A DNA stretch of 64,000 nt from a virus. A program made the translations under genes and the position numbers. Each line of letters begins with the position of its first letter. The first letter of the stretch is position 1. Below the pieces are notes generated by a model. The model ran no database searches. It had not been told where the DNA came from and was given only the letters and a program-made list of their open reading frames with translations. The DNA lies in the IMG/VR virus record IMGVR_UViG_3300042554_001257, positions 5,489-69,488 of that record. One strand, written 5' to 3'. This document shows, in pieces, positions 48,222 through 60,180 of this stretch.

Positions 48222-48297
48222 TGTTTTGTTTGTTGACCTAGTTATTATAAGGTGTTTAGACTTGTGTGTCAAGTGTGCCAGTGAAGTAACTGGCGAG

Positions 48298-48372: not shown

Positions 48373-48564
48373 TTGCGTTGAGTAGTCTTGCTTCTCAACA
48401 GAACTAATTATACTACTTCTTGTACCCTTTGTCAAATGGTGCCCAGTGCTGCCAGTTGTATTTATGAATTGCCCAGATACCCATAATAGGAAGCACAATC
48501 AAAATATATCCAAGAAATCCAAGAGTATAGGGGTTTTCAAGAACCCATCGTGCAAAGTGTCCCA

Positions 48565-48786
48565 TCAATATCCCCTCCAAGTTTTAAATTCATAATAAAA
48601 ATATTGATCCAGTATCCTATCATCCAATGGGGCATTTTCAGTTCTATGAGCCCATACCTCACAGAATTCTAAGATACGACGATCGTGTAATGAACTATGC
48701 CCCCACATTCTTACAAATGCCGATACTGCAAAGTGATACCGCTGTCTAATGTGCGGTTCCGTTTCCTTTATACTTTTCGGTATCAT
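48565..48786 (-). CDS. hypothetical protein
   Basis: 73-aa ORF. Confidence 0.45.
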   Translation of the reverse strand: MIPKSIKETEPHIRQRYHFAVSAFVRMWGHSSLHDRRILEFCEVWAHRTENAPLDDRILDQYFYYEFKTWRGY

Positions 48787-48867
48787 AATACCCTCCTTTT
48801 GTTCCGAAATAAAGAGTTGTTAATACGAAAGGAATTGAAACAAATAAAAGTGCTTTTGCTAATAACA

Positions 48868-49368
48868 TCATACCATCTCCATTGCTCTTGAAAGTTCAAT
48901 ATAGTGATTGATTTCATCCACTGCGATTTCACCTATTCTGGCGTCTTCTGGATGATCCCAGAAGTAGTTTAGATAGGTTTCTGTGGCGTGATACTCAATA
49001 CCTGCATTCAGGTGATAAGCAGAGACAGGAGCAATAAAATAATAACCCACCAAAATCCAATAATAGACGAGAACCAAGTGATAAGCAATAAAACGGTCAT
49101 GCCAACGGTCGGCACCACCACGCCTTTCCATTTCGATGAGATGTTCGGTTTCATTGAGTGTCTGTGCAAAGTGTTCTTTCATTAAGTAGTAGTGTGATAA
49201 ATCTCTGAGTCCTAATGATTCTTTAAGATGCAGCACACTCACGAAAGCAAAGTATGGTGCTCTGGCAATTGTTTCCAAAACCCAGAATCTTTGTATGGGT
49301 AAGTCACGATACAGAAAGTCAATGATTGATATCGTGACTAGCAGGATTGTATCGTTGAACTTTTTCAT
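48868..49368 (-). CDS. ptoX: plastoquinol terminal oxidase
   Basis: RFWVLETIARAPYF...NETEHL...EYHATETY...DEINH di-iron ligands. Confidence 0.92.
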   Translation of the reverse strand: MKKFNDTILLVTISIIDFLYRDLPIQRFWVLETIARAPYFAFVSVLHLKESLGLRDLSHYYLMKEHFAQTLNETEHLIEMERRGGADRWHDRFIAYHLVLVYYWILVGYYFIAPVSAYHLNAGIEYHATETYLNYFWDHPEDARIGEIAVDEINHYIELSRAMEMV

Positions 49369-49532
49369 AAAAATACGCCTGGTTTGTAATCTACTAACTT
49401 TCGAATCTCATCCAGAAGTGCTCCATACTCTTTAAATTTTCTGTCACCAGCGATAAAATGTCTTTGCCTTGTCCAGACTGCATCTGCTAAAAGTTTCAGT
49501 TCGTATTCTGATAATCCGTTAAATCTTTCCAT
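49365..49532 (-). CDS. 55-aa hypothetical protein
   Basis: Not in ORF track; MERFNGLSEYELKLLADAVW..., stop overlaps the ptoX start. Confidence 0.5.
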   Translation of the reverse strand: MERFNGLSEYELKLLADAVWTRQRHFIAGDRKFKEYGALLDEIRKLVDYKPGVFL

Positions 49533-49543
49533 TTAATAACTCC

Positions 49544-50587
49544 TTATCTTACGTGATGACCACCGAACATATAACGCATTCCATTTAAGATTTTTGCTCC
49601 GAAGGATCCGAGATTGCGTGAGTTAAATCTTTCAAATAGTGCAGTAGTAATGACAGGAGCGGGAACCCCCAGATCCACAGCGGCAGAAACAGTCCAACGA
49701 CCCTCACCACTGTCGGATACGCCGCCAGAGAACTGTTTAAGCTCACCATCCCTGCGTAACACATCAGCAGTAAGATCGAGTAACCAAGACCCAACCACGC
49801 TACCACGACGCCATAACTCAGCCACCTCAGCAACATCAATATCATAACAATAACTTTCGGGGTCTGCCATTGGGGCAACCTCTGCATCTCCTTCTCTGAC
49901 ATACTTGGCACCTGCATTGGCGTTTTTAATAATGTTAAATCCTTCTGCATATGCCTGCATTATTCCATACTCAATTCCATTATGAACCATTTTAACAAAG
50001 TGCCCTGCGCCTGGACCACCACAATGCAACCAACCAAACTCAGCAGAAGTTACGTCTGAGTTAAATTGAGTCCTGGTGGCAGCACCGATTCCTGGTGCGA
50101 GGGCATCAAAAATGCTTGCACAAGTGGCGACTGCAGTATTTCCACCTCCAACCATAAGACAGTATCCACGATCCAAGCCATAAACACCACCGCTAGTGCC
50201 GCAATCAATATATTGGATACCCAACTTTGCAAGACGCTCTGCTCTTTTCCGACTGTCTTTAAAATTGCTATTGCCATGATCAATAATAATATCTCCTTCG
50301 TCACAATATCGTAGTAACTCATTAATCGTCTCCTCTACTGTTTCTGCTGGTACAACCATCATAAAGATGCCTGGTCCATATTTGTCTGATACTCCACTCT
50401 GAGTATGTTTTACTACTTGAGCAAGGCTTTGTATAGAAGTTGTAATACCATTAACATATCCGTTTTCGTATGCTTCGTTTGCTTTTTCATAATTTCTTCG
50501 ATACCCCCAAACTTCTATTCCTGCTTTCATCATACGGCGAGACATGCCCTCACCCATTCTTCCCAAACCAATTAATCCTACTTTCAT
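49544..50587 (-). CDS. gnd: 6-phosphogluconate dehydrogenase (short type)
   Basis: GLIGLGRMG...GAGHFVKMVHNGIEYG...SDSGEGRW...FGGH. Confidence 0.93.
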   Translation of the reverse strand: MKVGLIGLGRMGEGMSRRMMKAGIEVWGYRRNYEKANEAYENGYVNGITTSIQSLAQVVKHTQSGVSDKYGPGIFMMVVPAETVEETINELLRYCDEGDIIIDHGNSNFKDSRKRAERLAKLGIQYIDCGTSGGVYGLDRGYCLMVGGGNTAVATCASIFDALAPGIGAATRTQFNSDVTSAEFGWLHCGGPGAGHFVKMVHNGIEYGIMQAYAEGFNIIKNANAGAKYVREGDAEVAPMADPESYCYDIDVAEVAELWRRGSVVGSWLLDLTADVLRRDGELKQFSGGVSDSGEGRWTVSAAVDLGVPAPVITTALFERFNSRNLGSFGAKILNGMRYMFGGHHVR

Positions 50588-50784
50588 ACAACTCCTGGAT
50601 ATGCGTGTGTAAGTCCCCAATAAATGAATAGTATAATAGAACCAAAAAGTAAAAATGAAGATATAAAAAGATTACTCATCGTCCTCATCCTCATAAGTTG
50701 AAGGTTCTTCAAATAGTTCGTCTATTTTCTGTTGTAAAACTCTCCTTTGGAGTTCTTGCAAATCTTTTTCTGTAATTATCCCCA

Positions 50785-50991
50785 TTAGTTTAAAGTAATT
50801 TTAAGAAATGGAAGTAACGGGGGAATAACCCCAATCAACCTTAAAAGTCCCTCAGCAAATAAAGCAAGAACCACCCAACCGACGCACATACTAATGATAG
50901 AAGCATTACGGTTGTGTCGTCGTATTGCAGCATCGATCATCTCCTGCACTTCTGTGCGAGTTACATAATCATCGTCAAATGGTTCCATCAT
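50785..50991 (-). CDS. small membrane protein
   Basis: IRRHNRNASIISM...TM segment. Confidence 0.55.
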   Translation of the reverse strand: MMEPFDDDYVTRTEVQEMIDAAIRRHNRNASIISMCVGWVVLALFAEGLLRLIGVIPPLLPFLKITLN

Positions 50992-51137
50992 TTCTCATCT
51001 CCAAGAAACTTTGCCAGAGGATCTCTTCTGGTTTTAACGATTTCTACTGCTCTCTTATAGAACATATTATCGGTGTTCCCAGAAGATTCAAAAGTCTCCT
51101 TGATCTTCACCCAATTGTCATAGGTGTGCTGATCCAT
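50988..51137 (-). CDS. 49-aa hypothetical protein
   Basis: Not in ORF track; MDQHTYDNWVKIKETFESSGNTDNMFYKRA. Confidence 0.5.
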   Translation of the reverse strand: MDQHTYDNWVKIKETFESSGNTDNMFYKRAVEIVKTRRDPLAKFLGDEK

Positions 51138-51249
51138 AGGGTTTTAGGTTGAATACTACTAGTTATTCTAGTAAGTACTTTTACTATGTCAAGTTTGTGT
51201 TGATACAAAAATATAGATTAAGAAAATCTAAAATTTGTAATATTTGTAA

Positions 51250-51333
51250 CGGAAGCGGTTGGATTCGAACCAACGGTGCTATTAACACGCTTGTTTTCAA
51301 GACAAGTTCCTTAAACCACTCGGACACGCTTCC
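51250..51333 (-). tRNA. trnS: tRNA-Ser(TGA)
   Basis: CTTGT-CT-TGA-AA-ACAAG; long variable arm; G73. Confidence 0.92.
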
Positions 51334-51344
51334 AATAAAAGTCC

Positions 51345-51602
51345 TTAACGGACTTCAAAATCTAAACGTCTTACTTTACGTTGTCTCCTTGCCTCCTGAA
51401 AGGCAAGATCTTCATTAGTCAGAACACCAGGTTTTGATTTGTGTCCATAAGAGTTTAACATAACAACAGCAGATAAGTCAACTGCCGAAATCTTATCACC
51501 ACGAATGGATGCCATATTAGGGCAACCACAAGACACAGTTTTCGTAGGATGCCCTTCTAACTCCCTACCACAGGAGCGGCATCTAATTCTTAAATTTTCC
51601 AT
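51345..51602 (-). CDS. Zn-binding hypothetical protein
   Basis: CRSCG...SCGCPN. Confidence 0.6.
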   Translation of the reverse strand: MENLRIRCRSCGRELEGHPTKTVSCGCPNMASIRGDKISAVDLSAVVMLNSYGHKSKPGVLTNEDLAFQEARRQRKVRRLDFEVR

Positions 51603-51618
51603 CTCTATAATAAGTTAA

Positions 51619-52056
51619 TTATTTTTCAGTAAATGAGCGAAGCATCCAAACGAACTTACCGTGTGCTTCATTTAAATCATCAAGAAGATTGATCGTTCCT
51701 CTTGACTTCTGTTCCTCTGCTTCAGTAGCAGCATTGGAAAGCATAGTAATTATTTTTTGATGACCATCCATCAAATCACGAATCATTTCCATTTCGGAAA
51801 TATTAGATTTTGCTTCACCAACACCAGAAACCTCTATTACCCTTGACAATGAACTAACTGGTTTTGCACCAAGATACCTCATATGCTCAGAAACACGATC
51901 AACTTCCTCTTGAATAGCAAGATATTGCTCACCAAATAAGTCGTGAATCTGCTTAAAGTCAGGCCCAACAATGTGCCAATGATAAACCCAAGTTTTCTGA
52001 AATAAGACAAAAAGACTTGCCTGAGTGTCAGAAAGTAACTTATATAATTTTTCCAT
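51619..52056 (-). CDS. dps: Dps/ferritin-like protein
   Basis: HWHIVGPDFKQIHDLF...DRVSEH...KFVWML; TATAAATA late promoter at 52074-52081. Confidence 0.88.
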   Translation of the reverse strand: MEKLYKLLSDTQASLFVLFQKTWVYHWHIVGPDFKQIHDLFGEQYLAIQEEVDRVSEHMRYLGAKPVSSLSRVIEVSGVGEAKSNISEMEMIRDLMDGHQKIITMLSNAATEAEEQKSRGTINLLDDLNEAHGKFVWMLRSFTEK

Positions 52057-52083
52057 TATACCAGTTTTTTAGGTATTTATAAG

Positions 52084-52155
52084 TGGGCAATATCGGATTC
52101 GAACCAATGACCGTCTGCGTGTAAAGCAGCTGCGCTACCGCTGCGCCAATCGCCC
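52084..52155 (-). tRNA. trnV: tRNA-Val(TAC), outside the main array
   Basis: CTGC-TT-TAC-AC-GCAG; A73. Confidence 0.92.
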
Positions 52156-52505
52156 ATAAAAAGTCAATACTGACTCATAAGATATTCTACTGTATTTGCT
52201 ACATCATTCATAGCATCTCGTAGATCTGTTTGCTGCCCTGACTCTTGCTTAATAATCGGACGATGATCATCAGTTAGAGTCCAACGCCATTGATCCATAT
52301 CCTTACAGAACCAGAGATTAATTTTCATTCTTAAAATACTCCAATTCTATCCAGCGAAGAAGTGTGTTATAGGCATAGATTGATGCTTCTGTACAGTTGT
52401 CTTCTTTAAGTCTCTGGATATAATACTCAAGTGCCTCAATAACCATTTGACGGTCCATCTGGGAAATAAGAGACATAACCCTCCTAACTCGTTATCTATA
52501 ATACA

Positions 52506-52895
52506 CTAAAAAGGGGGTTTTGTCAACTCCCCCTCTTCTTGTTTGTTTTTGTTGACTTGTTTAGCACTCCAAACAATGATAGATATGAGCGCAAAGTAAA
52601 ACAGATAGTCGTCAATCATAACCAAAAAGAAAATAACTGAACCACCTATTCTCAAATAATCTGGCATTGGAATCTTGTTACAGACCCAACGAACTTGTTT
52701 TTCAAAGATAAAGTATAGTGGTATGAGTGCAGTGACTACAAACTCACTATACGGAATCACAAAATATAGAGAGAGCAATATAAAGATTGGGAAGTATTGC
52801 CTCTCTGGTATCCTCTTTAGATATGAAACATATAGATCAATCCATCCCTGACGGGTTTTTGGTCTTTTTTTCCAACGCTTGATCAATTGCTTCAT
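52506..52895 (-). CDS. membrane protein
   Basis: Several hydrophobic segments. Confidence 0.5.
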   Translation of the reverse strand: MKQLIKRWKKRPKTRQGWIDLYVSYLKRIPERQYFPIFILLSLYFVIPYSEFVVTALIPLYFIFEKQVRWVCNKIPMPDYLRIGGSVIFFLVMIDDYLFYFALISIIVWSAKQVNKNKQEEGELTKPPF

Positions 52896-52919
52896 ATTTA
52901 AAAATTAATACTATCTATA

Positions 52920-53897
52920 TCACTTCTCACCCATACCGATTTGTTGAACCTTGATACGGGATTTATTCAAAATAGAACCAGCAAGAGGAACATAACCAAG
53001 ATCATCAGCAAGTGATTGTGCCTTAGAACTTAGAGCATAGTTGATAGCATCACGAACTGCGGTTGCCTTACCAGGAGCATAACCACTCTTATAGGCAATA
53101 ATCCAGGTCAGAGTGGAGATAGGATATGCCTGAGCACCTGCGGGGTTAGGATCTTCACCAGCAAGGGTCACGGGGTCCAATTTGATGCCATTCAGAGCAG
53201 CGGCACCAGTTACAGCAGAAGGTCCAACGAACTTACCTGCCTTGTTTTGGAGAACTGCTGCTTGAAGTTTGTTGGGACGAACAAATCCAGTGTTCACATA
53301 ACCAATGGCACCAGGAGTGTTCTTGATCGTGCCAGAGACACCTTCATTACCCTTAGCACCAACACCAGTAGGCCAGTTTACGGACTTACCCACACCAGGA
53401 GCCCAACCACCAAAAGCATCCAGAGAGTTGGTGAACGCATAAGTAGTTCCAGAACCATCAGAACGATGAACAACCATCATCTTACCAGCAGTACAACCGA
53501 CTTGTTTCCAGTCCTTAATACGACCAGAAAAAATATCAACGGTTTGTTTCTGAGTTAGTTTCAGTTTGCAACCAGGTTTGTTATAGGCAATAGCAATCGT
53601 TCCACCCACCATAGGAATCTGAACGACACCACGCTTTACTTTCTTTGCTTCAGATGACTTAATGGGTTCATCAGAGGCACCGAAATCTACGGTTCCAGCA
53701 ACAAATTGACGAATACCAGCACCAGAACCAACGGACTGATAGTTCACACGGTTACCAGAAGATGTGGAGTAATCCTGGAACCAACGTTGATAGATGGGTG
53801 CGGGGAACGTAGCACCAGCACCATTAATAGCAGGTCCAGCAAGTGCAGAAGTAGGTGCAAGAGCAAGACCAATTGTAGCAATGTGTTTGAGTTTCAT
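52920..53897 (-). CDS. pstS: phosphate ABC transporter binding protein
   Basis: GAGATFPAPIY...YQSVGSGAG...VHRSDGSGTT...AYPI. Confidence 0.95.
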   Translation of the reverse strand: MKLKHIATIGLALAPTSALAGPAINGAGATFPAPIYQRWFQDYSTSSGNRVNYQSVGSGAGIRQFVAGTVDFGASDEPIKSSEAKKVKRGVVQIPMVGGTIAIAYNKPGCKLKLTQKQTVDIFSGRIKDWKQVGCTAGKMMVVHRSDGSGTTYAFTNSLDAFGGWAPGVGKSVNWPTGVGAKGNEGVSGTIKNTPGAIGYVNTGFVRPNKLQAAVLQNKAGKFVGPSAVTGAAALNGIKLDPVTLAGEDPNPAGAQAYPISTLTWIIAYKSGYAPGKATAVRDAINYALSSKAQSLADDLGYVPLAGSILNKSRIKVQQIGMGEK

Positions 53898-53919
53898 AAA
53901 AATTAAAAACTTCTTTGTA

Positions 53920-53952
53920 ATTGTACTTGATTGAGTTTAAGAGAAAGTTAAA
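53920..53952 (-). promoter_or_regulatory. Pho box and -10 upstream of pstS
   Basis: TTTAACTT-tct-CTTAAACT (two YTTAAYY-like repeats, 11-bp period), then TACAAT. Confidence 0.7.
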
Positions 53953-53966
53953 TGTCACCAAACACC

Positions 53967-53990
53967 AAAAAACCTCCCCGAAAGGAGGTT
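53967..53990 (-). terminator. intrinsic terminator after the porin gene
   Basis: CCTCC-TTTCGG-GGAGG + T6. Confidence 0.8.
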
Positions 53991-54009
53991 TAGAGGTATC
54001 AGGATTCTA

Positions 54010-55488
54010 TCAGAAACGGAAGGTCGTCTGAATCACACCACCATAGTTAGAAGATGCGTTCTTAAATGCCTGATTATTAGAAACATAGAAGATTGCAGGA
54101 GTCACGCTGATGTTATCGCTAACCTTGTAACGATAGAAGGCTTCCCACATCAGAGCGTCTTTGGTCAGCGTAGGTGCGTTGCCAGGTTGACCGATGGCAA
54201 AACCAGAGGCATTACCCTTAGCAAACACATCACTCCACTGAACACCAGCCATCCAAGTTTGGGAGTTGGTAGCAGCATTAGGAGTTGCAGGACCACTCAC
54301 ATAGTTCCAACCATAAGCGGCAGAGACCGAAGGAATGATGCCAGACTTCTTAGGTTGCCAGTAAGCATTCAGAGCATAACCGTTAGAGGTTTGGTTAGCG
54401 GCAAGAGTACCACCATTACCAGCAACACCATTGAAGGTACGAACACGAGTGCCTTCCGTACCATTACGATAACCGAAAGCAATACCGTATTGAGGAGCAC
54501 GATAACCAACTTGTGCCAGAGTATTCAGAGCACCAGAGGCATCAAATTCACCTTTGGTAGAATCAGAACCGTTCTGAGCAACATAGTTCAAGTTAGCAAC
54601 GAAACCTTTCTTACCCGCTTGTGCCCACTGAGCACCGAAACCAGAACCAGTTGCCTTGTTATAGACACCAGGAGCACCAGCAACAGCAAAGAAGTCAAGA
54701 ACATCCGACTTGTATGCAGTAGGAATCCATGCCATCTCAGTGTTACGAACCAGAGCACCAGCAGTCAGGGTTACGCCCTTAGCAAGTGCGGGGAAGCTGT
54801 AGTACAGACGGTCAAGATTGACTTGGTTTGCATAAGATTCTGCCTTATCCAGTTTGAACAGAGAAGAGGAAGAACCGAAAGGTTGCGAAGAGAAGTTACC
54901 AGAACGCAGACGAGTGCGAAGCAGATCCTTACCAGTGAAGGAAGTATCAAAGTTCAGACGAAGATCGTAGTTGAATGCGGTGTTACCAACGTTGGTTCCG
55001 TTAGCAAGACGAGCACCTTCTACACCACCAAGAACGAAGGTTGCTTCACCTTTCAGTTTGGTAGTAGTAGAAAACTGAGTTGCTTGAAGTTGACCAACTT
55101 GTGCTTCCAGTTTATCAACACGACCACGAATAACAGCAAGTTCTTCACGGAACTCAGTAGCAAGACGTTGAAGTTCATCAGTAACTTCGGTTACACGATC
55201 AAGGCAAGCATTCAGAAGTGCAGCTGCCTCATAACGAGTCATTGCCTTACCACCACCATAGGTGCCGTTAGGATAACCAGCAACACAACCATAACGCTCA
55301 ACAAGATTATTGAGTGCCTGATATGCCCAATCAGTAGGTTGAACATCAGACAGTTGAGTGATACTTGAAACCTGTTCCGAAGTGGAATATTGGTTGACTG
55401 CTACCATATTCAGATCTGCGGCATTCGCAGTAACAGGAGCAACCATTCCCAGAGCAACAGGTGCAAGCATCAGTTGTTTGAGTTTCAT
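54010..55488 (-). CDS. som: cyanobacterial outer-membrane porin (SLH + beta-barrel, SomA/B type)
   Basis: Signal peptide; SDVQPTDWAYQAL..LVERYGCVAGYP; FSTTTKLKGE; terminal TFRF. Confidence 0.9.
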   Translation of the reverse strand: MKLKQLMLAPVALGMVAPVTANAADLNMVAVNQYSTSEQVSSITQLSDVQPTDWAYQALNNLVERYGCVAGYPNGTYGGGKAMTRYEAAALLNACLDRVTEVTDELQRLATEFREELAVIRGRVDKLEAQVGQLQATQFSTTTKLKGEATFVLGGVEGARLANGTNVGNTAFNYDLRLNFDTSFTGKDLLRTRLRSGNFSSQPFGSSSSLFKLDKAESYANQVNLDRLYYSFPALAKGVTLTAGALVRNTEMAWIPTAYKSDVLDFFAVAGAPGVYNKATGSGFGAQWAQAGKKGFVANLNYVAQNGSDSTKGEFDASGALNTLAQVGYRAPQYGIAFGYRNGTEGTRVRTFNGVAGNGGTLAANQTSNGYALNAYWQPKKSGIIPSVSAAYGWNYVSGPATPNAATNSQTWMAGVQWSDVFAKGNASGFAIGQPGNAPTLTKDALMWEAFYRYKVSDNISVTPAIFYVSNNQAFKNASSNYGGVIQTTFRF

Positions 55489-55609
55489 AAAAATTTGTTT
55501 TTAGTACTAAACGACATAGTGAAAATCGTGCAAGTAGTTGCGGCACGATTGATCACGGTATTTATCTTAACATTTTCTTTGGGATCAGTCAAGTTTTTTG
55601 GTTTTCATA

Positions 55610-55681
55610 AGCGGAAGACGAGATTCGAACTCGCAACAACCTGCTTGGAAGGCAGGGACTCTACCGTTGAGTTACTTCCGC
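55610..55681 (-). tRNA. trnG: tRNA-Gly(TCC)
   Basis: CCTGC-CT-TCC-AA-GCAGG; U73. Confidence 0.93.
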
Positions 55682-55683
55682 AA

Positions 55684-55737
55684 TGGTGGGGATTTACCCA
55701 GCCTCAGAGTTTCCTCTTCACAGGCACGGAACCCCAC
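55684..55737 (-). ncRNA. candidate small RNA with a kink-turn and GAAA tetraloop
   Basis: GUGGGG...GCC-UGU-GA-AGAG-GAAA-CUCU-GA-GGC...CCCCAC-CA. Confidence 0.55.
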
Positions 55738-55763
55738 GCACTTCACTTCACACGGACTTGTAA

Positions 55764-55792
55764 AGTATATGACATAATGATCATTATGTCAA
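55764..55792 (-). promoter_or_regulatory. sigma70-like promoter containing a perfect 22-bp palindrome
   Basis: TTGACA-17-TATACT; TGACATAATGATCATTATGTCA at 55770-55791. Confidence 0.75.
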
Positions 55793-55793
55793 G

Positions 55794-55866
55794 AGCCCCC
55801 GACAAGACTTGAACTTGCGACAACCGCTTTACAAAAGCGGTGCTCTACCAGCTGAGCTACAAGGGC
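55794..55866 (-). tRNA. trnT: tRNA-Thr(TGT)
   Basis: CCGCT-TT-TGT-AA-AGCGG. Confidence 0.93.
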
Positions 55867-55869
55867 GAA

Positions 55870-56077
55870 TGGGTATCGAGTGCCCGACACCCGCAGAAGA
55901 CACTTTCTGCGATTTTCACTGCATTAGAGGGCAGTGATAAAAGAAAACACCAAACCTTATTTTTCCTGTTCTCAGGAAGGCACCCAAATGGGGTGGGAGA
56001 CCTTGCAAGGGTTTATACCTCCAAAGTTTGTCCAGCGTTTTCAATTTGAAAGAATCGGACATTTCCAATCCTTTCAA
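55870..56077 (-). ncRNA. candidate ~200-nt multi-stem RNA
   Basis: 14-bp hairpin, a multibranch domain closed by 13 bp, three more hairpins; many G-U pairs on the minus strand. Confidence 0.55.
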
Positions 56078-56150
56078 CTGGGGCGGCAGGGATCGAACCT
56101 GCGACCTAGATGTTAACAGCATCCCGCTACTACCGCTGAGCTACACCCCA
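56078..56150 (-). tRNA. trnN: tRNA-Asn(GTT)
   Basis: GATG-CT-GTT-AA-CATC; U1-A72, G73. Confidence 0.92.
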
Positions 56151-56215
56151 ATATTTGTTTTTATGTGTAAGGGAAAGGAGAGCTCTTGGACGGAACCGCA
56201 GGATCACTTTCCCAG

Positions 56216-56286
56216 TGGAGAATAGCAGAATCGAACTGCTAATAAGTGCTTGCAAAGCACCCGTTATACCGTTTAACTAATTCCCC
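56216..56286 (-). tRNA. trnA: tRNA-Ala(TGC)
   Basis: GTGC-TT-TGC-AA-GCAC; G3-U70. Confidence 0.92.
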
Positions 56287-56290
56287 AAAT

Positions 56291-56365
56291 TGGAGGCGGG
56301 GGGTGGAGTTGAACCACCTACCTGAAGCTTATGAGACTTCTGTGCAACCGTTACACTTCCCCACG
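56291..56365 (-). tRNA. trnM: tRNA-Met(CAT), initiator-like 1:72 mismatch
   Basis: GAAGT-CT-CAT-AA-GCTTC; C1xC72; encoded CCA. Confidence 0.8.
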
Positions 56366-56429
56366 ATGATGGATTGAGTGTGATACATCTCATAAGGATG
56401 TAACAGGGACTCAACCTCCAACAATTTAT

Positions 56430-56458
56430 ATAGTAACAAACTTTTGCAAGTTTGTCAA
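56430..56458 (-). promoter_or_regulatory. internal sigma70-like promoter with an inverted repeat
   Basis: TTGACA-17-TACTAT then ATAAAT; ACAAACTT-GCAA-AAGTTTGT. Confidence 0.7.
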
Positions 56459-56459
56459 G

Positions 56460-56533
56460 CGTCCTTTGAGAGATTCGAACTCCCGACACATAGGTTCGTA
56501 GCCTACTGCTCTATTCCACTGAGCTAAAAGGAC
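56460..56533 (-). tRNA. trnR: tRNA-Arg(ACG)
   Basis: GTAGG-CT-ACG-AA-CCTAT. Confidence 0.93.
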
Positions 56534-56536
56534 AGG

Positions 56537-56608
56537 CGAAGGGTGAGGGATTTGAACCCCCATCGCAAGGTTTTGGAGACCTGCATCTTACCATTAGACC
56601 AACCCAAC
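56537..56608 (-). tRNA. trnW: tRNA-Trp(CCA)
   Basis: AGGT-CT-CCA-AA-ACCT; two U-U pairs in the acceptor stem. Confidence 0.85.
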
Positions 56609-56612
56609 AAGG

Positions 56613-56685
56613 TGTCCGTGAGAGGATTCGAACCTCCAACAAATAGATCCTTAGTCTATTGCCTCTTCCATTGGGCTACACGGAC
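56613..56685 (-). tRNA. trnL: tRNA with AAG anticodon (Leu) and a short variable loop
   Basis: ATAGA-CT-AAG-GA-TCTAT; 5-nt variable loop; A73. Confidence 0.8.
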
Positions 56686-56759
56686 TGGTTGAGAAACTAG
56701 GACTCGAACCTAGATAAACTCCTTCAAAGGGAGGTGTCCTGCCATTAGACGATTTCTCA
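56686..56759 (-). tRNA. trnQ: tRNA-Gln(TTG)
   Basis: CTCC-CT-TTG-AA-GGAG; U1-A72; encoded CCA. Confidence 0.9.
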
Positions 56760-56764
56760 ATAGG

Positions 56765-56840
56765 AGTTCAGGGTGGGATTTGAACCCACGGTGAAAGAAG
56801 TTTTGCAGACTTCTGCATTCGACCACTCTGCCACCTGAAC
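56765..56840 (-). tRNA. trnC: tRNA-Cys(GCA)
   Basis: GAAGT-CT-GCA-AA-ACTTC; U73. Confidence 0.92.
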
Positions 56841-56842
56841 GG

Positions 56843-56914
56843 GGTGACGTATGGGAATCGAACCCATCTACCCAGATTCACAATCTGGTTCCTTATCCGC
56901 TAGGATAACGTCAC
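56843..56914 (-). tRNA. trnH: tRNA-His(GTG)
   Basis: CCAGA-TT-GTG-AA-TCTGG; C73. Confidence 0.9.
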
Positions 56915-56915
56915 A

Positions 56916-56989
56916 TAGCAGTAGGTGGATTTGAACCACCGTCCATAGGAATATGAGTCCCGTACTCTACCAGACTGAGCTATACTGCT
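56916..56989 (-). tRNA. tRNA(CAT), Met or lysidine-modified Ile
   Basis: GGGA-CT-CAT-AT-TCCT; A1-U72; A73. Confidence 0.8.
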
Positions 56990-56993
56990 GAGG

Positions 56994-57076
56994 CGGAAGA
57001 TGTTGGATTCGAACCAACGGAGGTTTTACCCTCACGGTTTAGCAAACCGCTGCATTAACCACTCTGCCAATCTTCC
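56994..57076 (-). tRNA. trnS: tRNA-Ser(GCT)
   Basis: GCGGT-TT-GCT-AA-ACCGT; long variable arm. Confidence 0.93.
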
Positions 57077-57190
57077 ATAAAGAAGGATAGTCAGTCCTCC
57101 TACCTTTATTCTCCTTGTCGAAATACTTGTCTCTACGGATTGACTAGATCCTAAAACTTTCTTCCTCAGATGGATTAAGGTTCACCAGAG

Positions 57191-57262
57191 TGGAACCGAC
57201 AAGATTTGAACTTGTGACCGCTCGGTTATCAGCCGAGTGCTCTACCACTGAGCTACGGTTCC
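57191..57262 (-). tRNA. trnI: tRNA-Ile(GAT)
   Basis: CTCGG-CT-GAT-AA-CCGAG. Confidence 0.94.
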
Positions 57263-57374
57263 AAAACTGGGTGAAAGGTCATTTGCTCTTTGCCCTTTCC
57301 ATTCCACATTCAGAAGATTGCGTTTGCAACCACTTTCTTCCTATACCCAGTAAGTTTGAGAGTAAAACTCTCAA

Positions 57375-57448
57375 TGGGAACAATCGGATTTGAACCGATA
57401 ACACCTTGATCTTCAATCAAGTGCTCTACCAATTGGAGCTATGTTCCC
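57375..57448 (-). tRNA. trnF: tRNA-Phe(GAA)
   Basis: CTTGA-TT-GAA-GA-TCAAG. Confidence 0.92.
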
Positions 57449-57451
57449 AAG

Positions 57452-57523
57452 TCCAGAAGGTTGGATTTGAACCAACGTCCTCACCGCCCCAAACGGTGCC
57501 GTCTACCGCTGACTTACTCCTGG
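57452..57523 (-). tRNA. trnP: tRNA-Pro(TGG), second divergent copy
   Basis: CACCG-TT-TGG-GG-CGGTG; C1-G72, A73. Confidence 0.88.
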
Positions 57524-57524
57524 A

Positions 57525-57599
57525 TGGTAGTCTCGAAGGGATTTGAACCCTCGTTTTTGCTGTGAAAGAGCAACGTCCTAACCATTAGACGACGAGACC
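57525..57599 (-). tRNA. trnE: tRNA-Glu(TTC)
   Basis: TTGCT-CT-TTC-AC-AGCAA; encoded CCA. Confidence 0.92.
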
Positions 57600-57795
57600 A
57601 GATGGGAGGGGTATCCCACACGAAGTTACTTACGGATTACGCTTCGTAGCCTTATGAATCCTGCCATCATCCGATGGTGGTTAGAAATCCCTCCCCAATT
57701 CCAGTTCTTGCTACGTCATTCCTTACCTAACTGGCAACATTCAGGATGACGTGCTACAACCGCCAAGGAGGGACACTCCATCGGCAGCGTAGCAA

Positions 57796-57868
57796 CGACC
57801 CTAACGGGATTCGAACCCGTGATACCACCGTGACAGGGTAGCGTGATAGACCACTTCACTATAGGGTC
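57796..57868 (-). tRNA. trnD: tRNA-Asp(GTC)
   Basis: CTACC-CT-GTC-AC-GGTGG; G73. Confidence 0.92.
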
Positions 57869-57872
57869 AAGG

Positions 57873-57963
57873 TGGGAGAGGAGGGAATTGAACCCCCGAT
57901 GGTTCCGATGTAACGGTTTTACAGACCGCAGCCACACATATTGCCAACAGTAGCCACTCTCCC
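57873..57963 (-). tRNA. trnY: tRNA-Tyr(GTA) with an enlarged D arm
   Basis: GCGGT-CT-GTA-AA-ACCGT; D arm GCTAC...GTGGC with a 14-nt loop. Confidence 0.85.
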
Positions 57964-57966
57964 AAA

Positions 57967-58039
57967 TGGGTCTGGTCGGACTCGAACCGACGACTTACAG
58001 GTTAAAAGCCCGCTACTCTACCAACTGAGTTACAGACCC
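57967..58039 (-). tRNA. trnK: tRNA-Lys(TTT), first gene of the array
   Basis: GCGGG-CT-TTT-AA-CCTGT. Confidence 0.94.
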
Positions 58040-58056
58040 ACATAATATAGGATAAA

Positions 58057-58099
58057 TATTCAGTTGTCTAGGTTCTCGGTGAGGGGTGATCCCTCAACC
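58057..58099 (-). promoter_or_regulatory. boxB-like hairpin + boxA-like antitermination signal
   Basis: TGAGGG/CCCTCA hairpin, then GAACCTAGACAACTGAATA, close to cyanobacterial rrn boxA GAACCTTGA(A/C)AA. Confidence 0.6.
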
Positions 58100-58171
58100 A
58101 CTTGATTAGAATACCACCGTTTGGTCTCTGGGGGGAGATTGGTGGACGCTTAGGAAACTGTCACAGGCAAC

Positions 58172-58206
58172 AAAAAAGGGGAGGAAACTTTTGGTTTCTC
58201 TCCCCT
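58172..58206 (-). terminator. attenuator terminator between the leader ORF and the tRNA array
   Basis: AGGGGAG-A-GAAAC-CAAAA-GTTTC-CTCCCC + T6. Confidence 0.85.
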
Positions 58207-58232
58207 GTCTTTTTGCTTTTATGGATTACATC

Positions 58233-58334
58233 TTACATATGTCTATCCATATCCGCAAACAGGGGAGCACCCTCAATATGCCAATAGCGGCAATCGAGAT
58301 TACTAAACTGTTTTGTGGGCATCGGGAAAGACAT
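58233..58334 (-). CDS. 33-aa putative attenuator leader peptide MSFPMPTKQFSNLDCRYWHIEGAPLFADMDRHM
   Basis: Not in ORF track; ATG 58334, TAA 58235-58233; AGGT 8 nt upstream; codons 5-23 all different amino acids; codons 23-26 complementary to the terminator 5' arm. Confidence 0.8.
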   Translation of the reverse strand: MSFPMPTKQFSNLDCRYWHIEGAPLFADMDRHM

Positions 58335-58355
58335 TGTTTTCGACCTAAGTATGTT

Positions 58356-58386
58356 TATTTATAAGACTTTTATTTTAAAAAGTCAA
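58356..58386 (-). promoter_or_regulatory. composite sigma70-like / T4-late promoter for the leader
   Basis: TTGACT-17-TATAAA, where the -10 is part of TATAAATA (gp55 consensus). Confidence 0.7.
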
Positions 58387-58460
58387 CGGGTTAGGTAGGA
58401 TTCGAACCTACGACTCACGCTTTAGAAGAGCGTTACTCTATTCCACTGAGTTACTAACCC
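58387..58460 (-). tRNA. trnR: tRNA-Arg(TCT), upstream of the leader
   Basis: ACGCT-CT-TCT-AA-AGCGT; own TTGACA-17-TATAAT promoter at about 58475-58503. Confidence 0.93.
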
Positions 58461-58506
58461 CTGTGAACCCTCATATTATAAGGTATGAGGAGAACCTTGT
58501 CAACCC

Positions 58507-59100
58507 TCAACCAAGATAAACATTGAAAGAGATAGAAATTCTATCTTCCATACTTTCATTTGCTTCCACATAATGCCACAAATATCCTGGCATCAAATAT
58601 AAACGTCCTTGCTTTGGTTCAAGATTAAGTTCTAACAAGTCAGAACGTCCATCATACAAATTACAATATTGTGACCCATCATTTCTTAAAATCACAAAGT
58701 TACCAGAGTCTTCTGGAACAGAAACATAATAAATGCCAATCAGATCTGCACGACCGTGAGAATGCATTACATTATAGTTATAAGACTTATTAACATTTAC
58801 CCAAAAGGAAAGTTCTCCAACATCAGATCGTAAGTTCTTTGAGATAAGAGTATCTTGTGCGAATACTTTTGCAGCGCCAATCAAAGTAGTTAATTGATTA
58901 AATTGCTCGTACTCAAATGACTTCTCAGTAGTAAAACTGGGAGAATGATATCCATTACGATTTGAATTATCAGTATTTTCAAAAAAATCTTTAACCTGAT
59001 AACATTCTTGGTTTAATATCTCTAAATCAATATTTGGTGAACAAGAACTAATAAAACTTGGAAAAATATCAGCATTAAAAGTTTGATTATAAAGATTCAT
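58507..59100 (-). CDS. putative 2OG-Fe(II) oxygenase
   Basis: WVNVN...HSH...GIYYV...MPGYLWHYV...RISISFN. Confidence 0.75.
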   Translation of the reverse strand: MNLYNQTFNADIFPSFISSCSPNIDLEILNQECYQVKDFFENTDNSNRNGYHSPSFTTEKSFEYEQFNQLTTLIGAAKVFAQDTLISKNLRSDVGELSFWVNVNKSYNYNVMHSHGRADLIGIYYVSVPEDSGNFVILRNDGSQYCNLYDGRSDLLELNLEPKQGRLYLMPGYLWHYVEANESMEDRISISFNVYLG

Positions 59101-59500
59101 TTGAGACACAATCTTCCACCCATACTGCACAAATTCTCATTTCACCGCCTAGTAGTTTTTGCGCTTCACTACCGTCTGGTTCTTTTTCAATATACTTTGG
59201 TTTATATTTTTGATTTGCTTCTCCGATTATTCTATCATATTCGGGAGAAACTTGCTTAATCGCCCTATCAACGTCTCTTTCTACTCTACGATTTACTTTA
59301 TCAGGATCTTGAATAAGAATCTCATTGAGAATAGTTTGTGGAAAATACTTTCTTTGAACCTCATCCAATAAGTCCCAAAGTTTATTTTCCGATACTCCTG
59401 TGCATTGTGAGAGTGATGCAATGAGAGTGGATAATACAATACTCAGTATTATAAGTTGCTTTTTATCGGGTTTCTTTTTACCAAAGTTAAAATTAATCAT
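59087..59500 (-). CDS. membrane-anchored protein
   Basis: Basic N-terminus, TM segment ending SLSQC, helical C-terminal part. Confidence 0.55.
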   Translation of the reverse strand: MINFNFGKKKPDKKQLIILSIVLSTLIASLSQCTGVSENKLWDLLDEVQRKYFPQTILNEILIQDPDKVNRRVERDVDRAIKQVSPEYDRIIGEANQKYKPKYIEKEPDGSEAQKLLGGEMRICAVWVEDCVSNESL

Positions 59501-59538
59501 AGGGGAGTTAAACACTCCCCCGTATTTATTCTATTGTA

Positions 59539-60180
59539 TCAAACTTCTACCGTGATCAGTCGGTTGGCATAGTCATGTGCATAAGATGTACGGGCACCAT
59601 GATGCCCCCAACCAATCCAACTATACGCATAGTCCATGTAACGATTGATAGACTTACCAGGAGTTTTCATTCGGTCTTCAATACGTTGCCATTGAACCTC
59701 AGTCGTTAGATAACGAAGTTGCGTTGGAAGTGATGATGGAGAACCACCATACTTCTTAGCAAAATCACCCAATCCATAATAACGATCGGCAGATGTCCAT
59801 TGGATCAGACCATAACCACGTCCGCAGTGATGGTACTGAGTCCTACTACCACCTTCACAAATATTAGGAACGAATGTTGATTCTTGTCTAATATTGCCCA
59901 TAATGGTAGCAAGGGCGTTTCTGTCTTTAATACCACGATCCTGGAAAAATGCCAGGGTAGCATTCTCATGTTCATTACACCCTTTACAAATTAGCCTTTT
60001 CTCTTTTGGCTTTTCGGGAGCAACCTCTTTGGTCGCTGTCTTTAATGTAGGCTCCTCTTGAATAATAGCAAATGGTGGAGGACCACTTACAGGTGGAGGA
60101 GGAAACACGCCAGGCAGTGTTGCCGTATTGGTTGTAACCGATGCCAGAAGGGGCAGGGCTACAGTAAAGATGTTTTGCAT
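59539..60180 (-). CDS. phage tail-lysozyme-type peptidoglycan hydrolase with a signal-like N-terminus
   Basis: ATIMGNIRQES...GYGLIQWT...QLRY; start reassigned to ATG 60180. Confidence 0.75.
   Translation of the reverse strand: MQNIFTVALPLLASVTTNTATLPGVFPPPPVSGPPPFAIIQEEPTLKTATKEVAPEKPKEKRLICKGCNEHENATLAFFQDRGIKDRNALATIMGNIRQESTFVPNICEGGSRTQYHHCGRGYGLIQWTSADRYYGLGDFAKKYGGSPSSLPTQLRYLTTEVQWQRIEDRMKTPGKSINRYMDYAYSWIGWGHHGARTSYAHDYANRLITVEV

What the first reader, a model, noticed from the sequence alone, without database searches (positions are those of the whole stretch)
55610..58334. Leader codons and array anticodons match one-to-one, including the shared absence of Val
Seen: the array carries Lys, Tyr, Asp, Glu, Pro, Phe, Ile, Ser, CAU, His, Cys, Gln, Leu, Trp, Arg, Met, Ala, Asn, Thr, Gly. 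That is 19 amino acids with no Val; tRNA-Val sits alone at 52084-52155 beyond the porin terminator. The leader run also lacks only Val. For the six-codon amino acids the run uses the codon box served by the array: Ser AGU (array GCU; Ser UGA is outside), Arg CGC (array ACG; Arg UCU is upstream), Leu CUC (array AAG). Several run codons end in G/C (CCC, CAG, CUC, UGC, CGC, GAG) although the phage is AT-rich, as expected if host tRNAs are being probed. Inference: the array products could relieve the stall, giving negative feedback. Pro CCC and Gly GGU would need extended U34 wobble.
Basis: partly seen in the sequence, partly recalled or inferred. Interest (0 to 1): 0.88.

Follow-up and report, generated by a model that had tools for sequence, protein, structure and literature searches.

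The report
Phage tRNA leader match mostly coincidental
A tiny translated "test" gene wired to a switchable transcription stop sits before this lake cyanophage's tRNA genes; here it uses exactly the amino acids whose tRNAs follow, but related phages show that this exact match, including the missing valine, is largely coincidence.

Summary
The 33-codon leader (58334-58233, minus strand) has 19 amino-acid kinds and no Val. The tRNA block 58040-55610 also serves 19 kinds and no Val.

The leader belongs to a conserved trp-type attenuator: promoter, ORF, regions 1:2, 2:3 and 3:4, and a U-tract. It occurs in 148 loci, including cultured phage S-PM2, and covariation supports both alternative folds.

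The leader is nearly constant, while the arrays vary from 6 to 25 tRNAs. The two amino-acid sets are equal in 1 of 58 distinct leader/array combinations, and that one is this window. Val-less leaders precede arrays that do contain tRNA-Val in 37 of 58. In relatives tRNA-Val follows tRNA-Gly directly. Here a 3.45-kb stretch holding the porin and pstS ORFs separates them.

Most G/C-ending codons of the leader touch the switch helices (8 of 11).

A weak cognate signal remains. Pro codons go with tRNA-Pro, and loss of the core Tyr codon goes with tRNA-Tyr deletion (label permutation p about 0.025). It depends on the tree used and may reflect linkage.

This scan has already reported the attenuator on at least 10 other genomes. 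Seven literature searches found no published account.

The parts
58475..58503 (-). Consensus sigma-70-type promoter TTGACA-17-TATAAT upstream of tRNA-Arg(TCT). It is a possible early source of transcripts that enter the leader.
   Evidence: 12 of 12 matches
58387..58460 (-). tRNA-Arg(TCT), 52 nt upstream of the leader ATG. It reads the leader's AGA codon but lies outside the array.
   Evidence: In 54 of 88 distinct upstream regions the nearest upstream tRNA is Arg(TCT) within 150 nt.
58356..58386 (-). Leader promoter. The T4-type late octamer TATAAATA is at 58363-58356. TTGACT lies 17 nt upstream at 58386-58381, giving an overlapping early/late type.
   Evidence: The octamer (T/C)ATAAATA is present in 88 of 88 distinct upstream regions, ending 19-22 nt before the ATG. 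TTGACT is 17 nt upstream in 45 of 88. The late-promoter consensus is taken from passages of PMC2984593.
58233..58334 (-). Leader ORF of 33 codons plus TAA: MSFPMPTKQFSNLDCRYWHIEGAPLFADMDRHM.
   Evidence: Homologous ORFs occur in 148 loci as 77 distinct peptides. The 4 distinct indels before the ORF's 3' end are all multiples of 3, against 3 of 22 downstream of the stop.
58308..58313 (-). Region 1 (AAACAG, Lys-Gln codons 8-9). It pairs with region 2.
   Evidence: helix 1 has 6 pairs with 98.1% of cells paired. One pair changes AU to GC in 8 sequences.
58272..58298 (-). Hairpin H1 over codons 13-21 (L-DCRYWHI-E). It may act as a pause hairpin and sensing segment.
   Evidence: helix 3 has 8 pairs and is 100% paired; 6 of the 8 pairs never vary. 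Its loop codons vary in relatives (R to Q or L; Y to D or E, or deleted).
58255..58267 (-). Region 2 (CTCCCCTGTTTGC, codons 23-27). It pairs either with region 1 or with region 3.
   Evidence: Covariation is coordinated across three partners at columns 93-162-182 and 39-100-150.
58221..58250 (-). Hairpin that carries the stop codon in its loop.
   Evidence: helices 5 and 6 are 94.3% and 84.8% paired. Four of 9 pairs have changes on both sides.
58172..58216 (-). Region 3 (GCAAA...CAGGGGAG), then the terminator hairpin (58205-58178) and T6 tract (58177-58172).
   Evidence: Folds (hairpin -17.8 kcal/mol); 11 pairs, 96.8% paired, 7 with compensatory change. The simple scan listed this hairpin on the + strand only.
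58041..58171 (-). Structured spacer with a conserved box (ACCTAGACAA here, ACCTTGACAA in most relatives) just before tRNA-Lys.
   Evidence: The promoter-like match TAGACA-17-TATTAT ends 1 nt before the tRNA, so a transcript started there would begin inside tRNA-Lys.
55610..58040 (-). tRNA array of 20 genes: Lys, Tyr(?), Asp, Glu, Pro, Phe, Ile, Ser(GCT), CAT, His, Cys, Gln, Leu(AAG), Trp, Arg(ACG), CAT no. 2, Ala, Asn, Thr, Gly.
52083..52155 (-). tRNA-Val(TAC). It is the distal member of the ancestral array, cut off here by a 3454-nt stretch that holds the porin and pstS ORFs.

Best explanation
The leader is the sensing ORF of a ribosome-mediated transcription attenuator of the trp-leader type, placed in front of the phage's main tRNA block.

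Proposed mechanism:
- Transcripts start at the TATAAATA promoter or read in from the tRNA-Arg promoter, and carry the 33-codon ORF.
- If a ribosome lags in roughly codons 3-16, region 2 (codons 23-27) pairs with region 3. The terminator then cannot form and RNA polymerase runs on into the array.
- If the ribosome runs through, or no ribosome loads, region 2 is covered or pairs with region 1. The terminator forms and transcription stops.

The ORF holds 18-20 kinds of codon in nearly every relative, so it can report shortage of almost any charged tRNA, host or phage.

The exact identity between the leader's and the array's amino-acid sets in this window is a by-product of two things. The leader is nearly complete and nearly invariant. 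This phage also has one of the most complete arrays. The shared lack of Val arises because most leaders lack Val whatever the array holds, and because a stretch with the porin and pstS ORFs separates tRNA-Val from the array here.

Shown: the anatomy, its conservation, the covariation of both folds, and the signs of translation.
Inferred: the promoter class, the stall window, the readthrough itself, and any feedback through the array's tRNAs.
For: Conservation. The same layout is present in S-PM2 and in 148 loci in all.

Both folds are kept (alignment A1, 78 distinct sequences).
- Terminated state: 96.9% of cells paired, against 43-54% when partners are slid.
- Antiterminated state: 93.4% paired, against 39-57% slid.
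- Seven of 11 terminator pairs and 4 of 13 region 2:3 pairs change on both sides.
- The window's leader folds at -63.4 kcal/mol, z = -5.45.

Stall modelling. With the A site at codon 10 or 14 the antiterminator is the minimum-energy fold. From codon 17 on it is the terminator.

Signs of translation.
- Indels before the ORF's 3' end are in frame in 4 of 4 distinct cases, against 3 of 22 after the stop.
- The ORF frame holds 18.5 kinds of amino acid on average, against 14.15 in each of the other two frames of the same RNA (86 distinct ORFs).

No promoter that could yield a whole tRNA-Lys lies between the terminator and the array.

The match is a by-product.
- The sets are equal in 1 of 58 combinations.
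- For Val the counts are: leader and array both have it 0; leader only 6; array only 37; neither 15.
- The distance from tRNA-Gly to tRNA-Val ranges from 1 to 3454 nt in relatives.
- Ten of 45 leader peptides occur with more than one array.
- Shuffling residues within alignment columns gives the same diversity (18.72 against the observed 18.76). The diversity therefore sits in the invariant core and is not maintained by compensating changes.
Against: Some co-variation between leader and array exists.
- Own-array tRNAs read 66.1% of leader codons, against 64.4% for other phages' arrays (none of 10,000 permutations reached this; not corrected for relatedness).
- Pro codons in the variable N-terminal part against tRNA-Pro: 38 / 4 / 2 / 27.
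- On the tree of the intervening sequence, about 7 of 9 independent contrasts go the same way and 0 the other way (p about 0.016).
- In the cognate versus non-cognate matrix the true amino-acid labelling beats 97.5% of 720 label permutations.
- Seven of 8 observable leaders with Y17 changed to D or E lack tRNA-Tyr.

No experiment shows termination, readthrough or translation. The simple terminator scan did not list the hairpin on the minus strand. RNA-library contigs that bridge the terminator come from relatives and cannot exclude DNA carry-over. Arrays were called with ARAGORN only, which misses atypical tRNAs.
Confidence: 0.68

Rival explanations
1. One reading: the leader is tailored to the array. 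Each array tRNA has its codon in the leader, codons without an array tRNA are purged, and the array's products relieve the stall. This would give closed-loop negative feedback for each tRNA species.
For: - The sets are exactly equal in this window.
- Leader Pro codons against tRNA-Pro: 38 / 4 / 2 / 27. Independent contrasts: 6.9 the same way, 0 the opposite way.
- In the 8 codon/tRNA tests, contrasts that differ in both traits go the same way almost always. Same/opposite: Phe 2.1/0, Ser AGY 2.4/0.2, Ser TCY 0/0, Met 1.9/0.3, Thr ACH 3.6/0, Thr ACY 4.4/0.4, Leu CTY 1.8/0.
- The cognate labelling lies in the top 2.5% of label permutations and above all 265 complete mismatches.
- The Tyr codon of the core is unchanged in most leaders. 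It is replaced by Asp or Glu in 11 loci. Of the 8 where the slot can be seen, 7 lack tRNA-Tyr.
- All 7 combinations whose leader lacks Gly also lack tRNA-Gly in the array.
Against: - Equality occurs in only 1 of 58 combinations.
- tRNA-Val is present in 37 of the 52 arrays whose leader lacks Val (of 58 combinations). tRNA-Asn is present without an Asn codon in 13.
- Leaders keep Ala, Cys, Phe, Pro and Trp codons without the cognate array tRNA in 46, 39, 32, 29 and 19 of 58 combinations.
- Identical leaders occur with different arrays, for 10 of 45 peptides.
- On the right-flank tree only 3-4 contrasts in leader Pro remain (2 the same way, p = 0.5). L088 looks like a recombination mosaic.
- Leader Pro co-varies almost as well with tRNA-Cys (3.0/0) and tRNA-Phe (2.8/0) as with tRNA-Pro (3.8/0).
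- The Tyr case is compatible with one mutation kept beside a nearby deletion about 330 nt away by linkage. L137, L147 and L153 have lost the codon but keep the tRNA.
- TCT, CTG and AGA in this very leader are not read by the array.
Confidence: 0.22
2. The small ORF, or its RNA, is a stand-alone late gene: a 33-residue peptide effector or a small RNA with its own promoter and terminator. On this reading it merely lies inside the tRNA region and does not control it.
For: - It has its own promoter octamer in 88 of 88 distinct upstream regions and its own terminator.
- The core DCRYWHI is strongly conserved.
- The unit is compact, about 170 nt.
Against: - A second, mutually exclusive pairing of an ORF segment with the 5' arm of the terminator is conserved, with coordinated three-way changes. 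A plain terminator does not need this.
- The N-terminal third of the peptide varies freely while the frame is kept. Much of the conserved peptide sequence coincides with base-paired RNA.
- The position directly before tRNA-Lys is nearly constant.
- No usable promoter lies between the terminator and tRNA-Lys.
- There is no Pfam or PHROG family. Only 3 clusters turn up among 1.84 billion representatives.
Confidence: 0.08

Closest known systems
Leader-peptide transcription attenuators of enterobacterial amino-acid operons (trpL, hisL, pheL, thrL, leuL, and the multivalent ilvGMEDA leader). Named from textbook knowledge; PMC1183508 and PMC3082878 were seen as abstracts in the listing.
   Same: A short translated leader, followed by an intrinsic terminator. 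A leader segment (region 2) can pair with an upstream partner (region 1) or with the 5' arm of the terminator (region 3). The position of the ribosome decides which fold forms.
   Different: - It controls tRNA genes of a virus, not biosynthetic or synthetase genes.
- It has no run of one kind of codon. The leader holds 18-20 kinds, and in this window 19 different ones in a row.
- Region 2 lies inside the ORF, and a further hairpin carries the stop codon.
- The promoter looks like a T4-type late promoter overlapping an early one.
T-box riboswitches (uncharged-tRNA sensors of Gram-positive bacteria, Rfam RF00230)
   Same: Transcription readthrough is coupled to tRNA status through a terminator/antiterminator choice.
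   Different: A T-box binds one tRNA directly and needs no translation. Here an ORF is conserved with in-frame indels. No Rfam family reached E <= 0.1 in 58041-58386.
rRNA/tRNA operon antitermination (boxB-boxA and Nus factors).
   Same: A conserved box (ACCTTGACAA or ACCTAGACAA), preceded by a hairpin, lies just before the first array tRNA.
   Different: It lies downstream of the leader terminator, so it cannot be the switch. Its identity as boxA was not tested here.

Membership tests
Ribosome-mediated leader-peptide transcription attenuator | Short translated leader ORF upstream of the controlled genes | tested here: met
   The ORF is intact in 148 loci. The 4 distinct indels before the ORF's 3' end are all multiples of 3, against 3 of 22 downstream of the stop. 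An AGG-containing stretch before the ATG is nearly invariant. Translation itself was not observed.
Ribosome-mediated leader-peptide transcription attenuator | Intrinsic terminator (G+C-rich hairpin plus U-tract) between the leader and the controlled genes | tested here: met
   Hairpin of -17.8 kcal/mol followed by T6. Eleven pairs are 96.8% paired, 7 of them with compensatory change. Caveat: the simple scan listed the site on the + strand only.
Ribosome-mediated leader-peptide transcription attenuator | Antiterminator pairing that excludes the terminator and involves a leader segment | tested here: met
   Region 2:3 has 13 pairs, 91.3% and 96.6% paired. Four pairs change on both sides. Slid controls give 39-57% for the whole structure.
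Ribosome-mediated leader-peptide transcription attenuator | Upstream partner (region 1) that sequesters region 2 when no ribosome is stalled | tested here: met
   Six pairs, 98.1% paired, but only 1 pair has a compensatory change, in 8 sequences. The support is weaker than for the other helices.
Ribosome-mediated leader-peptide transcription attenuator | Control codons are a run of codons for the amino acid(s) of the regulated pathway | tested here: not met
   There is no run. Seventy-two of 77 distinct peptides have 18-20 kinds of residue.
Ribosome-mediated leader-peptide transcription attenuator | Readthrough rises when the ribosome stalls (experimental) | not testable with these tools
   Only thermodynamic modelling of stalled states was possible.
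T-box riboswitch | Match to the T-box covariance model (specifier loop and T-box sequence) | tested here: not met
   cmscan of 47000-60000 at E <= 0.1 lists only tRNA, one weak tmRNA hit and three weak plastid-UTR hits. None lies in 58041-58386.
   Equal in 1 of 58 distinct leader/complete-array combinations, namely this window.
   - Pro: p about 0.016 on one tree and p = 0.5 on another.
- Cognate labelling: 2.5% tail of 720 label permutations.
- Tyr: 7 of 8, but compatible with one event plus linkage.
- Val and Asn go against it.

The most novel reading that the evidence does not exclude
The leader's codon repertoire is tuned to the tRNA genes behind it. When a lineage gains tRNA-Pro, Pro codons appear in the sensing part. 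When tRNA-Tyr is deleted, the Tyr codon of the core, otherwise unchanged in most leaders, is replaced. The attenuator would then be a closed-loop controller in which the phage's own tRNAs shut off their own transcription, species by species. Codons without a phage tRNA would report the host pool.
Probability: 0.22. Interest if true: 0.9.

Novelty: new variant of a known kind. Interest (0 to 1): 0.7.

Why it matters
Phage tRNA arrays are usually discussed as fixed supplements to the host's tRNA pool. A translated sensor that opens transcription into the array when ribosomes lag would mean the phage measures decoding capacity and supplies tRNA on demand.

It would also be a natural attenuator that samples nearly all amino acids rather than one. 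That makes it a compact reporter of global charged-tRNA status and a ready-made part for synthetic biology.

This report narrows the claim. The sensor appears generic, not custom-fitted to each phage's array. The tidy one-to-one match and the "shared missing Val" in this window should not be used as evidence for feedback.

The residual Pro and Tyr co-variation gives two concrete, cheap predictions for testing feedback in S-PM2-like phages.

Tried and rejected
- Val as a meaningful shared absence: rejected.
- Compensatory maintenance of amino-acid diversity: a column shuffle of 54 main-clade peptides gave 18.72 +/- 0.07 against the observed 18.76, and 33% of shuffles reached it. No evidence.
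- Own promoter for the array: the 10-of-12 match before tRNA-Lys ends 1 nt before the tRNA and is weak or absent in most relatives. Rejected as a source of whole tRNA-Lys.
- G/C-ending codons as probes of host tRNAs: 8 of 11 touch switch helices, against 9 of 17 A/T-ending codons. Pairing is the simpler reading, but codons 3, 4 and 6 remain unexplained.
- Peptide families: no PHROG or Pfam hit at E <= 1. There were 3 clusters at E <= 0.001 among 1.84 billion representatives.
- Cultured relatives: blastn of the ORF against 50,697 phage records found only the three S-PM2 records. Records near the window's own genome may be left out by that tool.
- RNA evidence: contigs of four RNA libraries were laid. 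Record 14 of X20 (912 nt) and record 23 of X21 (262 nt) cover leader plus terminator of relatives. Contigs cannot show ends, strand or level, and DNA carry-over is possible. I draw no conclusion from them. Parts without cover mean nothing.
- More data: the exact CGT-variant scan added only 3 loci. I did not use the metagenome or genome collections.
- Literature: seven searches gave no account of a leader-peptide attenuator before phage tRNA genes. PMC10690425 and PMC2864571 were checked by term passages only. PMC2984593 was read in passages for the late-promoter consensus. Supplementary files were not opened and might list this intergenic motif.
- Rows dropped: L046, L096 and L156 (chance matches of the pattern); L110 (no ATG at the usual place); L127 (the ORF reads on into unrelated sequence); leaders cut by a contig end (L083, L144, L146). 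Arrays counted as complete only if more than 700 nt followed the last tRNA, and the array was ended at the first gap over 700 nt. tRNAs that ARAGORN missed count as absent, except that a 93-nt 'Arg gcg' call was read as Tyr. In some searches, gaps holding a Tyr-like anticodon loop and T loop were also counted as Tyr.

Full report
WHAT IS IN THE WINDOW

ARAGORN finds 23 tRNA genes, all on the minus strand. Nineteen lie in 55610-58040. Rfam confirms 18 of these as tRNA and adds a second CAT tRNA at 56294-56365 (46.4 bits), which ARAGORN missed.

The 93-nt gene at 57871-57963 is called Arg(gcg) by ARAGORN. Rfam gives it only a weak tmRNA match. Its anticodon loop reads CTGTAAA and its acceptor, anticodon and T arms align with the tRNA-Tyr of phage S-PM2. 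Its D arm is atypical.

No Val tRNA lies in the block. tRNA-Val(TAC) is at 52083-52155, beyond the porin and pstS ORFs.

The minus-strand ORF 58334-58233 encodes MSFPMPTKQFSNLDCRYWHIEGAPLFADMDRHM. It has 19 kinds of residue and no Val. Codons 5-23 are 19 different residues in a row, the longest such run in the six frames of the window; the next longest is 16. At the amino-acid level, then, the leader and the block 58040-55610 carry the same 19 kinds.

At the codon level, array tRNAs read 26 of 33 codons under strict wobble and 30 of 33 if U34 reads whole four-codon boxes. TCT (codon 2), CTG (25) and AGA (31) are not read in either case. The contig held for this genome is 69.5 kb with 38.9% G+C, and all of its 23 ARAGORN tRNAs lie in the window.

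THE LEADER IS PART OF A CONSERVED SWITCH

S-PM2 has the same order of parts: tRNA-Arg(TCT), a 34-codon ORF sharing the core DCRYWHI, a terminator, then Lys, Tyr, Asp, Glu and so on.

A back-translated pattern of the core found 119 stretches in IMG/VR, and 117 of them carry the homologous ORF. A scan with the 5'-untranslated 18-mer added leaders with changed cores. In all, 148 loci carry a leader, as 77 distinct peptides.

Every one of 88 distinct upstream regions has (T/C)ATAAATA ending 19-22 nt before the ATG, and 45 also have TTGACT 17 nt further upstream. NATAAATA is the late-promoter motif reported for S-PM2, and overlapping early and late promoters are reported for that phage (passages of PMC2984593).

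I aligned 78 distinct leader regions (A1) and counted two mutually exclusive structures.
- Terminated state: region 1 with region 2, a hairpin over the DCRYWHI codons, and the terminator. Here 96.9% of cells are paired, against 43-54% when partners are slid. Seven of 11 terminator pairs change on both sides.
- Antiterminated state: region 2 with the 5' arm of the terminator and the GCAAA before it, enclosing a hairpin that holds the stop codon. Here 93.4% of cells are paired, against 39-57% slid.

Columns 93, 162 and 182 change together, as do columns 39, 100 and 150. That is what alternative pairing predicts.

The window's leader folds at -63.4 kcal/mol, z = -5.45. If the RNA hidden by a ribosome is removed, the antiterminator is the best fold for an A site at codon 10 or 14, and the terminator from codon 17 on.

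Translation is supported indirectly. The four distinct indels before the ORF's 3' end are 3, 3, 6 and 9 nt long, whereas only 3 of 22 indels after the stop are multiples of three. The ORF frame holds 18.5 kinds of residue on average, against 14.15 in each of the other two frames of the same RNA.

Between the terminator and tRNA-Lys there is a conserved box but no promoter that could give a whole tRNA-Lys. The 10-of-12 match in this window ends one base before the tRNA. One caveat: the simple terminator scan listed the hairpin on the + strand only. On the minus strand the stem has one bulge, and my evidence for it is the folds and the covariation.

IS THE LEADER FITTED TO THE ARRAY?

I called tRNAs in all loci with ARAGORN. 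I defined the array as the plus-sense tRNAs after the leader up to the first gap over 700 nt. I kept the loci where more than 700 nt followed the last tRNA. This left 58 distinct leader/array combinations, with arrays of 6-25 genes serving 5-19 amino-acid kinds.

- The two amino-acid sets are equal in exactly one combination, this window.
- Val: leader and array both have it 0; leader only 6; array only 37; neither 15.
- tRNA-Val follows tRNA-Gly in 37 of 47 combinations that have tRNA-Gly. It is 1-3 nt away in six, and within 815 nt in 22 more. In 36 of the 37 the leader has no Val codon.
- Only this window and three relatives (L045, L040, L076) have 3.0-3.5 kb between Gly and Val. Here that stretch holds the porin and pstS ORFs. 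The "lonely" tRNA-Val is therefore a displaced array member, and the shared absence is not a design feature.
- Leaders keep codons for Ala, Cys, Phe, Pro, Trp and Leu although the array lacks the tRNA in 46, 39, 32, 29, 19 and 15 of 58 combinations.
- Ten of 45 leader peptides occur with more than one array.

The leader is thus close to a constant and the array is the variable. The two coincide here because this phage has one of the four most complete arrays.

WHERE THE LEADER'S DIVERSITY COMES FROM

Thirty-three-residue windows with 19 kinds make up 0.7% of windows in the window's 51 long ORFs. Twenty-two-residue windows with 18 kinds make up 0.02%. Against shuffles that keep the leader's own base composition at each codon position, 19 or more kinds occur in about 5%.

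Shuffling residues within alignment columns does not lower the diversity (18.72 against 18.76). There is therefore no sign that a lost residue is compensated elsewhere. The diversity sits in the invariant positions (K, Q, D, C, R, Y, W, H, I, E, G, P, L, F, M), many of which are also base-paired.

But 8 of 11 touch the switch helices, so pairing strength is the simpler reason.

Own arrays read slightly more leader codons than other phages' arrays do (66.1% against 64.4%). No permutation of 10,000 reached this, but the test ignores relatedness.

Pro codons in the variable N-terminal part go with tRNA-Pro between Glu and Ile: 38 / 4 / 2 / 27. On a tree of the sequence between the two traits, about 7 of 9 independent contrasts go the same way and none the other way (p about 0.016). 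The other codon/tRNA pairs in that test lean the same way.

On a tree of the right flank, however, only 3-4 contrasts remain and p is 0.5. L088 moves to the clade whose leader and array it shares, as expected of a recombination mosaic.

A matrix of all leader traits against all tRNA traits, on a tree of the anchor tRNAs plus the spacer after the leader, shows that leader Pro goes with tRNA-Cys (3.0/0) and tRNA-Phe (2.8/0) nearly as well as with tRNA-Pro (3.8/0). Large-array lineages simply have the Pro-rich leader. Even so, the true labelling of six amino acids gives a higher sum than 97.5% of the 720 relabellings, and higher than all 265 complete mismatches.

The core Tyr codon (Y17) is unchanged in most leaders. 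It is replaced by Asp or Glu in 11 loci. In 7 of the 8 where the slot can be seen, tRNA-Tyr is absent: Lys and Asp are 1 nt apart in six, and the whole proximal array is gone in L133. This is what feedback logic would predict.

Still, the codon and the deletion lie only about 330 nt apart. The change may have arisen once and stayed linked. L137, L147 and L153 have lost the codon but keep the tRNA. On the tree the contrasts are 1.7 the same way, 0 the opposite way and 4.3 unchanged. I rate this as suggestive only.

MECHANISM I COMMIT TO

The element is a generic, ribosome-mediated attenuator. Slow decoding of almost any codon kind within about codons 3-16 lets the antiterminator form and opens transcription into the array. 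Smooth decoding, or no translation at all, terminates.

The anatomy, the conservation and the covariation are shown. The promoter class, the stall window, readthrough and any feedback are inferred.

I put about 0.8 on the attenuator as such, 0.68 on the full statement that the one-to-one match is a by-product, and about 0.22 on real tailoring with feedback.

COMPARISON WITH WHAT IS KNOWN

The logic is that of the trp, his, phe, thr and ilv leaders. The differences are the controlled genes (viral tRNAs), the near-complete codon sampling in place of a run, region 2 lying inside the ORF, and the stop-codon hairpin.

No Rfam family, T-box included, matches the leader at E <= 0.1. No Pfam or PHROG family matches the peptide. 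Only three clusters resemble it among 1.84 billion representatives. Among 50,697 cultured phage records only S-PM2 matched.

The DNA is held by freshwater and lake metagenome runs. RNA-library contigs of relatives cover the leader and terminator, but as contigs they prove little. Seven full-text searches found no description of such control of tRNA genes.

This scan's own records show that the same attenuator was already reported on at least 10 other genomes. Two of those notes say the leader is "written in the codons its own tRNAs read", which my counts do not bear out as a rule. I consulted those records after my own analysis, except for the notes on this window.

Noticed in passing
window 57871-57963 (-): A 93-nt tRNA-like gene with a Tyr-type anticodon loop and an enlarged D arm. 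ARAGORN calls it Arg(gcg), and Rfam's tRNA model does not list it (tmRNA 22.5 bits only). ARAGORN makes the same 'Arg gcg' call at this slot in several relatives (for example L088, L025, L041, L010, L060, L061).
   Followed up: partly
window 56294-56365 (-): A second CAT-anticodon tRNA, found only by Rfam (46.4 bits). By eye its first and last acceptor bases are C and C, a 1:72 mismatch. Its identity (initiator-like, elongator Met or Ile2) remains open.
   Followed up: no
window 58041-58100 (-) and the same place in relatives: A conserved hairpin plus a box (ACCTTGACAA, ACCTAGACAA or ACATCGACAA) lies directly before tRNA-Lys. It resembles a -35/-10 pair, but the transcript start would fall inside the tRNA. 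It could be a boxA-like or a processing element.
   Followed up: partly
window 52156-55609: The ORFs for a porin-like protein (54010-55488) and a PstS-like protein (52920-53897) lie between tRNA-Gly and tRNA-Val. In relatives this junction holds anything from 1 nt to 3.1 kb, so it looks like a cargo insertion site within the array.
   Followed up: partly
L001 3943-4299 (S-PM2 record, annotated CDS S-PM2d160): The annotated 118-residue 'hypothetical protein' runs antisense across tRNA-Arg(TCT) and the leader. It is probably a spurious call. The 34-codon leader itself is not annotated.
   Followed up: no
L133, L042/L085, L027, L082: In some relatives most of the proximal array is missing. The first tRNA after the leader is Arg(ACG), or Lys is followed directly by distal tRNAs. 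The leader and terminator are nevertheless kept.
   Followed up: no
L140/L141, L127, L110: Odd leaders. L140/L141 have the core DCGRTWQHI with a rebuilt hairpin. In L127 the ORF reads on into unrelated sequence. L110 has no ATG at the usual place.
   Followed up: no
relatives such as L013, L079, L085, L093, L108: ARAGORN calls a tRNA 'His' with anticodon ATG in the distal part of several arrays. This is an unusual anticodon and was not checked with a second program.
   Followed up: no
window 58381-58370 region (-): An inverted repeat GACTTTT...AAAAGTC lies between tRNA-Arg(TCT) and the TATAAATA octamer, and is conserved in many relatives. It overlaps the TTGACT hexamer. Its role (weak terminator, processing site or promoter element) is unknown.
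   Followed up: no
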